64,000 bases of DNA, from the NCBI RefSeq assembly GCF_006345805.1, contig NC_043014.1, forward strand, positions 13,640,001 through 13,704,000, read 5' to 3'. Within the stretch, counting starts at the first letter, position 1, and each line of letters begins with the position of its first letter. Source of the DNA: Octopus sinensis (taxonomy: Eukaryota). The position numbers are program-made. Of the stretch, positions 1 through 42,000 are shown piece after piece.

Positions 1-3000
1 CCAGTCAAAATATTCTGCCTGTTTTATGTCTAAACCCAGTAAGATCTTGTCACTTGTGCTAGTCTTACAATAGCATTCTGAAGATAAAGAATCACATCAT
101 TGAAATCTTGAAACTATGAGATAATGCATGATTACTTCAAATCAATGTGGATAAATATGCATTACATTTGACCTTGTGAAGGCTAGTGAAGGCGTATGGC
201 TCAGTGGTTAGAGTGTCGAGCTTATGATCATGAGGTTGTGAGTTCAAATCCTGGACCAGGCTGTGTGTTGTGTTCTTGAGCAAGACACTTTATTTCATGT
301 TGTTCCAGTTCACTCAGCTGTAGAAATGAGTTGCGACATCACTGGTGCCAAACTGTATTGGCCTTTGCCTTTCCCTTGGATAATACTGGTGGCATGGAAA
401 GGGGAGGCTGGTATGCATGGGCGACTACTGGTCTTCCATAAACAACCTTGCCTGGACTTGTGCCTAGGAGGGTAACTTTCAAGGTGCAATCCCATGGTCA
501 GACATGACTGAAGGGGGTCTCAGCTCAGCAACATTTGACCTTGGTTATGTTTGTACTCGGAACGTAAGGATCTGGAAGTAATGCTGTTATACATTTTGTC
601 TGGTGTGCTAATGATTCTGCCAGCTCATTGCCTTTCTAATTCTTTCTACTATAAGCACAAAGCCTGAAATTTTGGAGGAGGGAGCTAATCAATTACATTG
701 CCCCCATTGCTCAACTGGTACTAATTTTGTTCCCCCTGAAATCAAATTCGATGACTGACATCTGTGCTAGTGGAGCACTAAGAGTACCTATTTCTTTATT
801 ACCCACAAGGGGCTAAATGTAGAGGGGACAAACAAGGACAGACATAGGTATTAAGTCGATTACATTGACCCCAGTGTGGAGTACCATACAAGCGTGATCG
901 TTGCCAGAGCAACAAGCTGGCCTCCATGCTGATGGCACGTAGAAAAGCACCATTCGAGCGTGATCATTACCTACATCGCCTTATTGGCACTCGGGCTGGT
1001 GGCACATGAAAAGACATTCGAACAAGGTCGTTGCCAGTGCCACTGGACTGGCTCCTGTGCAGGTGGCACATAAAAAGCATCATTGAGCATGGCCGTTGCC
1101 AGTACTGCCTGACTGGCCCTCGTGCTGGTGGCACGTAAAAGCACCCACTACACTCTCGGAGTGGTTGGCGTTAGGAAGGGCATCCAGCTGTAGAAACTCT
1201 GCCAGATCAGATTGGAGTCTGGTGCAGCCATCTGGTTCGCTAGACCTCAGTCAAATTGTCCAACCCATGCTAGCATGGAAAGCGGACGTTAAACAATGAT
1301 GATGATGATGATAATGACCTCAAAGGACAAAAAGCAAAGTCAGCCTGAGTAGCTCTTGAACTAAGAACATGGAGAACCAGATGAAACACCACTAAACATT
1401 TTCCCCAGCATACTAACAATTCTGCCATCTCACCAACTTCTCACGACAGTAAGTAACAACATACTAACAACGCAAAGAGAGAAATTATGAATGACACAAT
1501 ATGATGAATTTGGAAAGTTCTGGAAGAATGAAGAGAAAGAGTAGCAATGAAATCAATTAATTAGACCTTACTGTATTACATACCTGTAAAGAGAGTAGCA
1601 TGAGGCTGCTATGGCCTAAGCACAGTTGGATGAAGGGTCTGGTGTTGTCATCACGAATAGTATTGTTGTCTAACTGTCACAGAAAGAACAAGATGGTTAA
1701 TTACACACAAACACATACATAACAGATATAGGTTTGTGTGTATGCATATGTATATAGAGATAAACAAATGTATGTAAATATCAATATATATATGTATATA
1801 GTGTGTGTATATAAATACATACAGATATATGTACAGGGTGGGCCAAAACACACACACAAAATAAGTTCAATATGTTCAGAAGTTTATCAAAGAGATGCTT
1901 CAGTTTTTTTTAAATTGAATAAAATAATGAATACACATGTACATGTATATGATGAACAAAAATAATAATAATAATAATAATAACAATATAATAATAATAA
2001 TAACAACAATATAATAATAATAATAATAATAATAATAATAATAATAATAATAATAATAATAATTTAACATCCATTGTCCATGCTGGCATAGGTTGGACAG
2101 TTTAACCAGGGCTGGCAAGCAGAGGGGCTGTACCAGACTCCAGTCTGATTTGGCATGGTTTCCATGGCTGGATGCCCTTCCTAACACCAAACTCTCCAAG
2201 AGTGTAATGGGTGTTTTTATATTCCACTGGCACAAGTACCAGTTGCATGACACATGAATCTACCATGACTGTGATTTCATATTGCTGAGGGTCTTGGCCA
2301 TTTGCCATTGTCTCTGTGAGGCCCAACGCTCAAAAGATGCCTTTTATGTGCCACCGACATAAAGTGCTAGTTGCGCAGCACTGGCACAGGTGATACTTAC
2401 TTGACACTGGCATTGGCCACATTGCCTCTGTGAGGCCAAACACTCGAAAGGCGCTTTTTAATAATAATAATGGAATGTTCTGTAGAGGTTCTACAAAAAG
2501 TTTGCCTCTTAGGGACGGGATAGATTACTAGGAGGGTTTTAAGCATTTGAAAGATTACTGAAAGCTTGTGGATACCTAAGTTTACAGGTAGTAATCCACT
2601 ACCCACATAAATTCTACTAGGAATAAGAACGAACATGAGTCAAATCAATGACAATAATGTCACGATATAAATAAAATGCCAAATGTTTTAGTGCGTGACT
2701 TTTGAAATTTCCTCTGTTGGAAATTTCTGGCAAATTCCTGCTGTATGTGTGAACTCTTCCTGGTGTGGTGCAGTCGTTTGTTGTATTACTACTTGTATTG
2801 TGTGTTGAGTATCTCATTAGTATCATCCATCCCTGCCAGGGGGAGTGCCTTCTCCATTGTCATCAGTATTTTTGATACCTGCTGGGGGAATGGCCAGTAA
2901 TAGTCACTATCCTATTGTAGGATATCAACTATCCTATTACTGTAATAGGATATTACTGTAGGATATGGTTGAACACACCATTTGTTCTGTGGTGTTTGGC

Positions 3001-39000: not shown

Positions 39001-42000
39001 CCATGTCCCTTAGTCCTACTTGTCCTGCAAGTTACTCAGTACCCTCACTGCTGTTGAACTCAGAGCATGAAGACAGAAAAATGCTGCTAAGCATTTTATC
39101 CACCCATGCTAATGAGTCTACTAGTTCACTGCATTTATAATAATAATTATAACAATCATTTCTACACTAGGCACAAGGCCTGATATTTTGGGGCAGGAGG
39201 TCAGTTGATTACATCGACCCTAGTACTCAACTGGTACTTATTTTATCGACCCTGAAAGGATGAAAGGTAAAGTTGACCTCAGCAGAATTTGAACTCAGAA
39301 CATAAAGGTGGATGAAATGCTTCTAAGCATTTTGCCTGGTGTGCTAGTGATTCTGCCAGCTTGCTGCCTTAAAAAAAAAATGATGATGATAATAATAATA
39401 ATAATAATAATAATAATAATAATAATAATAATAATAATAATAATTATAATAATAATTATAATCCTTTCTACTGGAGGCACAAGGCCTGACATTGCTGAGG
39501 AGGGGACCAGTCGATTACATCGACCCCAGTATGTAACTGGTCCTTAATTTATCAAACCCAAAAGGATGAAAGGCAAAGTTGGCCTCAGTGGAATTTGAAC
39601 TCAGAACGTAAAAGTGGATGAAATGCCTCTAAGCATTTTACCTGGTGTGCTAGCAATTCTGCCAATTTGCTGACTTAAACTATACTATATATATTACCAT
39701 ATAGATGTGCTGTTGGTTAAAATAAATTTTTATTGACATGACTAAATTATTGATCATAGGTGTATACCTAACCTGTCTTTGATAATTTAGACTGTCCGCA
39801 TATCTTTTGCCTAGATATCTTACCCATGGCCTTACAGTGTATTAAAATGTGTTGTTGTATTAAAATGTGTTCAAAGCGGTGTTCCAGCATGGCCACAGTC
39901 AATGACTGAAACAAGTAAAATATCAAAGGCAAGATAAATACCAATGAAAAATATTTTATTTTAGAAAATACATACCAGGTGTGAACGACTCTGACAAACT
40001 GACATCAAAATTTCTGGAATCGGTCAGGAAGTCTAAGATGTCTTGAGGCTCATATTCAGATGAATGTTCAGTGATATCACTAGCAAACATTACGGTTTTT
40101 TCTTTCTCACAGACCATTTTTAGAAGAGGAAATGACTCGGACAGCTTATATGGTAACGCTCTACCTTTTCCTATAGTTACTGATTTAAGGACAAAAGAAA
40201 AGAAGTAAGAAAAAAAAGAAACTAAGATTATAATTTTCCCAATTATTAATCAAAAAATGAAAAAATGAAAAAATCAAAAATTAAAATTGATCAACATGAA
40301 TGGAAATTGTTGCTGTGATATCAGTGCTGGTGGCACATAAGAGAACCATCCGAACGTGGACGTTGCCAGTGCCGCCCTGACTGGCTTCCGTGCTGGTGGC
40401 ATGTAAAAAGCACCATCCGAGTGCGGCCATTTGCCAGCCTCGCCTGGCCTCCGTGCCCGTTTGCCAGACTTGTCTGGCACCTGTGCAGGTGGCATGTAAA
40501 AAGCACCCACTACACTCATGGAGTGGTTGGCGTTAGGAAGGGCATCCAGCTGTAGAAACATTGCCAGATCAGACTGGGCCTGGTGCAGCCTTCTGGCTTC
40601 CCAGACCCCAGTTGAACCGTCCAACCCATGCCAGCATGGAAAGCGGACGCTAAACGATGATGATGATGATGATGATTAACCTCTTTTGACAACACTACAT
40701 TTCAATCCATTTCATCAATGATTGTCATCAGTTATCTTATTCTTATTCTTATATACTCTTGGTTTAGAAATAAAAGTTCATAGTTCAAATCCAGTCAGAT
40801 ATGTACACATTCAGAAGTAGCACATCTCATGACAATCAGAGATCAAACTCATATAAATGTAGTGTGTGTGTATTATATATTTATCTGGATGAATTTATCT
40901 TTGTCCTTTAATAGGAATTTCCTCATACGTCATTACATGGAAAAATGCAAGCAAGAGAAATAACATTCTTAAGATTATAAACCTGGAAAATTACAGGACA
41001 ACTTATTATATTTGGTAAAGTACAGAACAAGAAAAATTTTTACTGAAAATATTTAGATTTAGAATTAGCTTTTATTAAAACCAAAAATTTTATTACAAGT
41101 TATTACTTCTATTTGTTATAACTTGTTACTTCTATTAAAAATAAAAAAAATAACTCAAAATATTTTTTGCTCTTTAAAAAAAATTAATTTTAAAAATTAT
41201 TTATTAATAATTAGAAATTTGAAAATAGATTATAAAAAATAATAGTAGTACATAATTAGTTAGTACAATAAGTAGAATAATACAAAAATTAGTTATATAT
41301 TACAGTAAAATCTACCTATACCAACAAATTCACAGTAAAATTTACTTGAGTTATTGCCTGAGTTATTGCCAAGTCTTCACATTTTTAGTTTTGACCCAAT
41401 GCCTATTTACATAATGAATTTGCCTACCGTATATACTGTTCTATTTTGCATAAAACTTTAGTTATATTGGTACTTCTGGCTCTCATTTTTAAAGTATTCT
41501 AGTGTGTCAATATTTTAACAAAATGACGGTGCCTTTTTTAATTATAATGTTAATTTGTAAATTAAAATCAAATAATTTTTAATATACAAACTTTATCCTT
41601 AGCTGTAATATTTTAAGTAAAAATTTTATTGTTCTGTACTTTACCAGATGTAATAACTTGTCCTGTAATTATATCCCTAAGAATATTATTTCTCTTGCTC
41701 ACATTTTTCCATGTAATCCATGTGTTTTCCAGGCTATACTATTATGCTAATTAATAATGTATCAAATGTGTCAGTTAGCATTGTTGCTTATAATTTTTTA
41801 TCACAATGATGCTGGTAATGTACATTAAAAGTCCTCTCAGAGAACTATATTCATAAAAAAGGATAAAAGTATATTATCACCCTCAAATTTGAGAAACAAA
41901 CACTCATAACTTTTTTTTTCTTTTAAAACTTCATTGCATAAGATTGATACCATGAAATTCCTTGAATTGAGCTCTATCATTTAAGCTTAATTAAAATATA

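What the first reader, a model, noticed from the sequence alone, without database searches (positions are those of the whole stretch)
1584..40179. Hidden 10-exon LRRC74-like gene across 39 kb of transposon debris
No exon is long enough to stand out in the ORF track. Ten exons of 72-204 nt with GT-AG ends and mutually consistent phases (1-1, 1-1, 1-0, 0-0, 0-1, 1-0, 0-0, 0-2, 2-0, 0-0) splice into 363 stop-free codons. The 28-aa RI-type LRR periodicity carries across the junctions. Resemblance to vertebrate LRRC74A/B is from memory. The copy looks strongly diverged, so it may be a lineage-specific paralogue that is unannotated or mis-annotated.
Basis: partly seen in the sequence, partly recalled or inferred. 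Interest (0 to 1): 0.7.

Follow-up and report, generated by a model that had tools for sequence, protein, structure and literature searches.

The report
Octopus LRRC74-like gene, already annotated
The ten small exons are real and belong to an octopus gene of the LRRC74 leucine-rich-repeat family, which public databases already hold under that name, though only as partial models.

Summary
There are ten exons (40179-39976 down to 1673-1584) of 72-204 nt. All have AG/GT ends and the stated phases, giving 359 whole and 4 split codons with no stop.

Exons 5-10 are 100% identical to residues 1-191 of NCBI [quoted passage not shown] (P0001). Exons 1-5 are 83-94% identical to an O. bimaculoides model, P0022, which is spliced at the same junctions.

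The best solved-structure match of both halves is bovine LRRC74A. That protein is a subunit of the nexin-dynein regulatory complex of sperm axonemes (PMC11779644).

So the gene is real and LRRC74-like, but it is not unannotated.
- 145 further residues of P0001 lie beyond the window start.
- A candidate upstream exon lies near 60.7 kb.
- The likely start codon is the ATG at 40117.

The public models I found are all partial. One of them (P0023) skips exon 3 and stops. I found no full-length model, which I estimate at about 488 aa. Low interest: an annotation refinement.

The parts
60716..60815 (-). Candidate upstream exon ('exon 0'). Its 3' end is the donor AACTTAG|GTGAGC. Its 5' end is undetermined.
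   Evidence: P0022 residues 20-49 match 60803-60717 at 87%. The donor is phase 1, so G plus TA at 40179-40178 gives Val, as in P0022. The open frame is only 33 codons, has no ATG, and is preceded by a run of stops in a (TAA)n microsatellite. It is therefore probably untranslated here.
39976..40179 (-). Exon 1 (204 nt, phase 1-1), the non-LRR N-terminal region. The likely start codon is the ATG at 40117-40115.
   Evidence: AG/GT ends and no stop. It is 83% identical to P0022 over 64 aa, 98% to P0023 over 47 aa, and 49% to cuttlefish P0002. P0023 starts at this Met. P0002 starts two residues before the aligned PLL motif.
38390..38461 (-). Exon 2 (72 nt, phase 1-1)
   Evidence: It is 100% identical to P0023 and 83% to P0022.
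34296..34405 (-). Exon 3 (110 nt, phase 1-0). It encodes the N-terminal cap before the first repeat and is skipped in model P0023.
   Evidence: It is 92% identical to P0022. The matching part of P0022 aligns with residues 66-110 of bovine LRRC74A chain 9fqr_Km. P0023 ends ...IRDK, which is what E2 joined to E4 gives (A|AA then TAA), read.
31427..31534 (-). Exon 4 (108 nt, phase 0-0), an LRR
   Evidence: It is 92% identical to P0022. Elysia LRRC74B-like P0017 matches at E 0.011.
29006..29099 (-). Exon 5 (94 nt, phase 0-1). It contains the Met (29075-29073) at which isoform X2 (P0001) starts.
   Evidence: It is 94% identical to P0022 and 100% to P0001 residues 1-23. Pfam LRR_6 E 0.006.
22408..22538 (-). 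Exon 6 (131 nt, phase 1-0)
   Evidence: 100% identical to P0001 residues 25-67 and 68% to P0002. LRR_6 E 0.0007.
15409..15495 (-). Exon 7 (87 nt, phase 0-0), one LRR
   Evidence: 100% identical to P0001 residues 68-96. LRR_6 E 0.00038.
11410..11525 (-). Exon 8 (116 nt, phase 0-2)
   Evidence: 100% identical to P0001 residues 97-134. LRR_6 E 5.2e-06 at 26.6 bits, above the 23.4-bit cut-off.
6622..6700 (-). Exon 9 (79 nt, phase 2-0)
   Evidence: 100% identical to P0001 residues 136-161. No Pfam hit of its own.
1584..1673 (-). Exon 10 (90 nt, phase 0-0). It is not the last exon.
   Evidence: 100% identical to P0001 residues 162-191. It ends in a GT donor. P0001 residues 192-336 have no convincing match in the window (best E 0.52).

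Best explanation
This is an intact, ordinary protein-coding gene on the minus strand of an octopus genome. The sequence is Octopus vulgaris or a very close relative. The gene is the cephalopod member of the LRRC74 family.

Shown here:
- Ten exons with canonical splice sites join in frame.
- They encode a short N-terminal region (E1-E2), a cap (E3) and eight full repeats of 27-29 residues of the ribonuclease-inhibitor type (E4-E10).
- The gene continues beyond the window's start, with about 145 more residues that include a weak EF-hand-like region.

Inferred:
- Translation starts at the ATG at 40117 in exon 1.
- A candidate upstream exon near 60.7 kb is then untranslated leader.
- The full protein would have about 488 residues, the size of vertebrate LRRC74A.
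- Leaving out exon 3 (110 nt) shifts the frame and stops translation after 72 residues. This would explain why public models either stop there (P0023) or start at the Met in exon 5 (isoform X2, P0001).

Inferred by homology only:
- The protein forms an LRR horseshoe that docks other proteins in the distal lobe of the nexin-dynein regulatory complex of motile cilia and sperm flagella, as bovine LRRC74A does.
For: Gene structure: 10 of 10 AG acceptors and GT donors, phases consistent, no stops.

Identity to public models:
- E5-E10 are 100% identical to P0001, NCBI 'LRRC74B-like isoform X2 [Octopus vulgaris]'.
- E1-E5 are 83-94% identical to O. bimaculoides P0022, with the same four junctions.
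- E1/E2 are 98/100% identical to P0023, which starts at the 40117 Met.
- Cuttlefish P0002 matches E1 and E5-E8 at 49-68%.

Family:
- Pfam LRR_6 scores 6.5e-15 on P0001.
- Of the 9 named hits among 21, four are outside cephalopods and carry an LRRC74 name: three gecko LRRC74A and one Elysia LRRC74B-like.
- The best PDB sequence hit of P0001 (3.8e-25) and of P0022 (3.6e-16) is 9fqr_Km.
- Gecko LRRC74A hits 9fqr_Km at 1.9e-144, so that chain is LRRC74A.
- P0022 residues 100-243 align with gecko LRRC74A residues 44-181, and P0001 residues 2-167 with 158-324. The two halves are therefore collinear with one LRRC74A.
- The nearest Atlas clusters of both halves are named LRRC74A, score 0.95 with 175-183 shared features.

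Against: - No RNA evidence could be examined, so every junction rests on predicted public models and on conservation.
- P0001 was very probably predicted from this same genome. Its 100% identity is therefore not independent evidence.
- The margins that favour LRRC74A over other axonemal LRR proteins are small. For P0001 it is 92.2 bits against 85.2 for a Leishmania axonemal LRR protein. For P0022 it is 62.8 against 56.0.
- By fold, 9fqr_Km ranks only third, behind a Leishmania chain and human DRC5.
- The EF-hand match is below Pfam's cut-off (16 bits against 30) and lies off the window.
- Only 4 of 10 exons give an LRR_6 hit on their own, and only one of those is above the cut-off.
- No full-length model was found, and one public model skips exon 3.
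- Several mollusc clusters carry LRRC74A-like names. This could therefore be a paralogue with a different role.
Confidence: 0.85

Rival explanations
1. It is a decaying or non-functional paralogue. The exons are relics, and the transcripts are mostly mis-spliced and degraded.
For: All public models found are fragments. One (P0023) skips exon 3 and stops after 72 residues. Isoform X2 starts only at exon 5. Identity to vertebrate LRRC74A is low, 35% over 167 aa.
Against: All ten exons are open with canonical sites. Amino-acid identity to O. bimaculoides is 83-94% across E1-E5. The cuttlefish keeps a homologue. No exon is hit by a repeat.
Confidence: 0.06
2. It is an RI-type LRR protein of another family, such as LRRC34-like, DRC5/TCTE1-like or NLR-derived. 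The LRRC74 name would then be only a best-hit label.
For: Bit-score margins in PDB are small. The fold search ranks a Leishmania chain and DRC5 above LRRC74A. Repeat proteins cross-match readily.
Against: LRRC74A is the top sequence hit for both halves independently. Alignment with LRRC74A covers the non-repeat cap, and the multiple alignment A1 stays collinear through the C-terminal region. 9fqr_Km gives the longest fold alignment, 319 columns. Atlas clusters for both halves are named LRRC74A.
Confidence: 0.07
3. There are two separate genes: an upstream one (E0-E5, as in P0022) and a downstream one (E5 Met onwards, as in P0001).
For: Public models split in just this way.
Against: P0022 ends '...LYLSGK', which is read-through of the exon 5 donor, so that model is truncated. 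Both models share exon 5. The phase at E5/E6 is consistent. The two halves are collinear with a single LRRC74A and with a single cuttlefish protein, P0002.
Confidence: 0.02

Closest known systems
Octopus vulgaris 'leucine-rich repeat-containing protein 74B-like isoform X2' (NCBI; P0001, 336 aa)
   Same: Residues 1-191 are letter for letter E5 (from Met 29075) to E10 of the window. It is the same gene.
   Different: It lacks E1-E4 and the first 8 codons of E5. It has 145 further C-terminal residues that are not in the window.
Octopus bimaculoides uncharacterized protein A0A0L8HT32 (UniRef; P0022, 244 aa)
   Same: It is the orthologue of E1-E5, with the same four junctions and 83-94% identity per exon.
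   Different: It has an N-terminal extension, part of which maps to 60803-60717 in the window. It ends by reading through the E5 donor. The window has no in-frame ATG in the matching upstream exon.
[quoted passage not shown]
   Same: The order of parts is the same: N-terminal cap, RI-type LRRs, then a C-terminal EF-hand-type region. It is collinear over both halves. The estimated length is similar, about 488 aa against 473-490 aa.
   Different: Identity is only 26-35%. The EF-hand match is below the cut-off in octopus. E1 has no counterpart outside cephalopods at E<=0.001, apart from one unnamed 1193-aa record (2 hits in all). Location in the axoneme is untested.
Acanthosepion pharaonis unnamed protein (P0002, 415 aa)
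   Same: It is the closest relative outside octopus: 58% identical over 123 aa of P0001 and 37% over 179 aa of P0022. It starts at the place that corresponds to the 40117 Met.
   Different: It lacks the stretch that matches the end of E8, E9 and E10 (alignment A1). Whether that is a real difference or a model error is unknown.

Membership tests
LRRC74 (A/B) | Tandem ribonuclease-inhibitor-type LRRs of about 28 residues (Pfam LRR_6) | tested here: met
   LRR_6 scores 6.5e-15 at 54.4 bits on P0001. It hits 4 of 10 exons singly, with E8 above the cut-off. Beta strands fall every 28 residues, 7 in a row, in the model.
LRRC74 (A/B) | Non-repeat N-terminal cap before the first LRR, collinear with LRRC74A residues about 44-110 | tested here: met
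   P0022 residues 128-243 align with 9fqr_Km residues 66-182. P0022 residues 100-243 align with gecko LRRC74A residues 44-181 at 26% identity, E 1.4e-09. That this cap defines the family is my own reading of the alignments, not a curated rule.
LRRC74 (A/B) | C-terminal EF-hand pair after the repeats (present in gecko LRRC74A according to the precomputed Pfam column) | tested here: inconclusive
   EF-hand_7 gives E 0.016 at 16 bits, against a cut-off of 30, on P0001 residues 254-298. The region is collinear in alignment A1. It lies outside the window.
LRRC74 (A/B) | Best match among named or solved proteins is LRRC74 rather than another RI-type LRR family | tested here: met
   Top PDB hit for both halves is 9fqr_Km, identified as LRRC74A. 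Named hits support this, as do the Atlas clusters. The margins are small: 92 against 85 bits, and 63 against 56 bits.
LRRC74 (A/B) | Placement inside the LRRC74 clade in a tree with LRRC34, DRC5 and other outgroups; assignment to A or B | not tested
NCBI's name says 74B-like, whereas the nearest named hits here are 74A. A versus B is left open.
LRRC74 (A/B) | Resides in the N-DRC distal lobe of the axoneme | not testable with these tools
   Known for bovine sperm only (PMC11779644, passages read).

The most novel reading that the evidence does not exclude
The complete open reading frame of about 488 residues (Met 40117 through E10, plus the off-window exons) is the true octopus LRRC74 protein, and it is missing from current public protein sets. 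Skipping of exon 3 is then a real, regulated event. It either switches the gene off through a premature stop after 72 residues, or gives an N-terminally truncated isoform (X2) that lacks the cap and the first two repeats. Such an isoform could dock differently in the axoneme.
Probability: 0.3. Interest if true: 0.2.

Novelty: already known. Interest (0 to 1): 0.12.

Why it matters
It matters little beyond annotation quality. The case shows that a reader working from raw sequence alone can recover a ten-exon chain exactly.

It also shows that the public octopus models of this gene are fragments. They could be merged into one LRRC74A-sized protein.

If the axonemal role carries over, the gene is a candidate marker for sperm-flagellar or ciliary N-DRC composition in cephalopods.

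Tried and rejected
- A regular-expression scan for LRR motifs found only four of the ten exons. It served only to fix the strand.
- Pfam on single exons is weak: 6 of 10 exons have no LRR hit.
- Vertebrate and Elysia proteins alone could not place E2 or E3. E3 was found only through the cuttlefish protein at E 0.027, and was then confirmed by P0022.
Accession numbers, the second member of P0001's cluster and isoform X1 stayed unchecked.
- The fold search did not single out one family. Among 186 matches at E<=0.001, the 50 or so top-ranked rows shown are all LRR-bearing proteins such as axonemal LRR proteins, NLRs and ribonuclease inhibitor.
- Rfam at gathering thresholds and ARAGORN found nothing in the window.
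- I considered reading exon 0 as coding and rejected it for this window. Its frame has no ATG and is closed by stops 33 codons upstream of the donor.
- The out-of-frame ATG in exon 0 runs into a stop in E1 (read by eye).
- dN/dS could not be computed, because no octopus DNA other than the window was available.
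Full report
**What is there**

The window has 64,000 bases with no N and 31-46% G+C. A motif scan put RI-type leucine-rich-repeat signatures on the minus strand at about 15.4 kb and 11.5 kb. Pfam LRR_6 matched three of the four stop-free frames tried, one of them above the curated cut-off.

The 57-aa frame around 11.5 kb was searched against longer proteins. It returned one protein at E<=0.001 among 69 candidates. This was P0001, 'leucine-rich repeat-containing protein 74B-like isoform X2 [Octopus vulgaris]', 336 aa, 98% identical.

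**Exon chain**

tblastn of P0001 on the window placed its residues 1-191 on six collinear minus-strand blocks from 29075 down to 1584. All six are 100% identical once the exon ends are set. Residues 192-336 have no convincing match (best E 0.52), so the gene runs off the window's start.

The upstream exons were placed as follows:
- Cuttlefish P0002 placed E1 and E2, and Elysia P0017 placed E4.
- Cuttlefish P0002 also placed E3, weakly at E 0.027.

I read the splice sites and checked them by script.
- Ten exons of 204, 72, 110, 108, 94, 131, 87, 116, 79 and 90 nt.
- AG and GT at all twenty ends.
- Phases 1-1, 1-1, 1-0, 0-0, 0-1, 1-0, 0-0, 0-2, 2-0, 0-0.
- 359 whole and 4 split codons, with no stop.
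- Introns of 1514 to 6912 nt.

Searches were made exon by exon or with public proteins.

**Independent support for the upstream half**

Exon 1 (67 codons) was searched against longer proteins. It gave one hit among 786 candidates: P0022, an O. bimaculoides uncharacterized protein of 244 aa.
- It holds E1-E5 joined at the same four junctions. Identity per exon is 83, 83, 92, 92 and 94%.
- It ends '...LYLSGK', which is read-through of the E5 donor, so the model is truncated.

An exhaustive phmmer search of exon 1 against 1.84 billion representatives gave two hits at E<=0.001.
- P0023 (72 aa) begins at the Met encoded at 40117 and carries the E1/E2 junction.
- It ends '...IRDK'. Joining E2 directly to E4 gives exactly A|AA (Lys) followed by TAA (read).
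- P0023 is therefore an exon-3-skipped product.
- The other hit, P0024, is unnamed and I did not fetch it.

**Ends of the gene**

P0022 residues 20-49 map to 60803-60717 on the minus strand at 87%. That block ends in a phase-1 donor, which would give Val together with the first two bases of E1, as in P0022.

In the window this frame is open for only 33 codons. It has no ATG and is preceded by stops in a (TAA)n microsatellite. I therefore take it for an untranslated leader exon.

I take the ATG at 40117 as the likely start, for two reasons:
- P0023 starts there.
- The cuttlefish protein starts at the matching place.

By arithmetic, the open frame from that Met to the end of E10 is 343 codons. 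With the 145 off-window residues this makes about 488. The bovine LRRC74A chain has 473 residues and the gecko LRRC74A proteins have 485-490.

**Family**

Sequence hits with P0001:
- The search gave 21 proteins at E<=1e-5 among 2928 candidates.
- Nine of these carry a source name: P0001 itself, the cuttlefish protein, three gecko LRRC74A, a Gekko hypothetical protein, Elysia LRRC74B-like, an Elysia hypothetical protein, and one alphaproteobacterial protein.
- The twelve unnamed hits were not used.

Solved structures:
- Both halves have the same best hit, chain 9fqr_Km. P0001 scores 3.8e-25 and 92.2 bits, and P0022 scores 3.6e-16 and 62.8 bits.
- The tool's table labels that chain 'Tubulin alpha-3 chain'. 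Gecko LRRC74A matches it at 1.9e-144 over residues 12-434, so the chain is LRRC74A.
- PDB 9FQR is the bovine sperm 96-nm axonemal repeat. Its paper assigns LRRC74A to the distal lobe of the nexin-dynein regulatory complex (PMC11779644; passages read).
- The margins over other axonemal LRR proteins are small: 85.2 bits for P0001 and 56.0 bits for P0022.

Other comparisons:
- The two halves are collinear with one gecko LRRC74A, at residues 44-181 and 158-324.
- An eight-sequence alignment stays collinear into the C-terminal EF-hand-type region.
- In octopus that region scores below Pfam's cut-off (E 0.016).

Predicted structure:
- An AlphaFold model of P0001 has mean pLDDT 72.
- It shows seven beta strands exactly 28 residues apart, followed by a helical C-terminal domain.
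- Foldseek against PDB ranks a Leishmania axonemal LRR chain first and human DRC5 second. 9fqr_Km is third, with the longest alignment at 319 columns. The fold is therefore consistent but does not discriminate between families.

The ESM Atlas puts both halves nearest to clusters named LRRC74A, at score 0.95. It also shows several mollusc clusters with such names, so paralogues exist.

**Surroundings**

- Within 1584-40179, 11,842 of 38,596 bases recur elsewhere in the window. No exon base does.
- 37 long stop-free frames were scanned with Pfam, and six have transposon-type domains.
- Three of the six are above cut-off: PIF1 at 19560-20156, the Pif1 2B domain at 47876-48427, and an endonuclease at 49385-49963.
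- Tandem Repeats Finder lists 39 rows.
- No Rfam family and no tRNA was found.

**Literature**

- 72 papers hold LRRC74A or LRRC74B (listing seen). I read passages of two of them.
- Three papers hold both LRRC74 and octopus. I read one passage, which reports an 'LRRC74A-like' gene as down-regulated in bobtail squid under warming.
- I found no paper about this octopus gene in those two searches.

**Verdict**

The family call is right. The gene is already in public databases under that name, so it is not new.

What remains is an annotation point. The public models I could reach are fragments, one of them skips exon 3, and a single LRRC74A-sized reading frame can be assembled from the window's exons together with the off-window part.

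Not checked:
- RNA evidence.
- dN/dS.
- The A-versus-B assignment.
- The paper's supplementary tables.

Noticed in passing
window 60960-62332: Two copies of a unit of about 690 bp lie in tandem, seen as self-matches 60960-61642 and 61656-62332. Identical peptide strings 690 bp apart also show it. A 45-base stretch around the exon-0 donor (60730-60687) recurs at 82% identity at 61119-61075 and 61816-61772. The leader exon may therefore be partly repeat-derived.
   Followed up: partly
window 18820-20590 (+) and 47876-48427 (+): There are fragments of a PIF1-type helicase. PIF1 scores 2.7e-25 at 19560-20156, and the Pif1 2B domain scores 9.1e-13 at 47876-48427. Such fragments would fit Helitron-like transposon remains, but that attribution is from my own knowledge. 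The first fragment lies in the intron between E6 and E7.
   Followed up: partly
window 48979-49963 (-), 3749-5131 (+), 29583-30350 (+): These are non-LTR retrotransposon remains. The endonuclease domain scores 1e-09, above cut-off. A zinc-binding RT tail and an RT fragment are both below cut-off.
   Followed up: partly
window 985-1140, 23094-23343, 27910-28135, 34850-35125, 52551-52709: A short interspersed element has an internal tandem unit of 61-67 bp. Self-match depth at these places is 13-26 HSPs. No tRNA-like part was detected.
   Followed up: no
window 34345-34365 (-), inside exon 3: Exon 3 holds a run of 12 A (GAAAAAAAAAAAATTT) encoding Lys-Lys-Lys. O. bimaculoides has the same KKK. 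Such a homopolymer is prone to sequencing or assembly slips, which could be one reason why some pipelines drop this exon.
   Followed up: no
PDB chain 9fqr_Km (tool output): The structure-search table names this 473-aa chain 'Tubulin alpha-3 chain'. Its sequence is LRRC74A, since gecko LRRC74A matches it at 1.9e-144. This is a label slip in the table or in the deposited record.
   Followed up: yes
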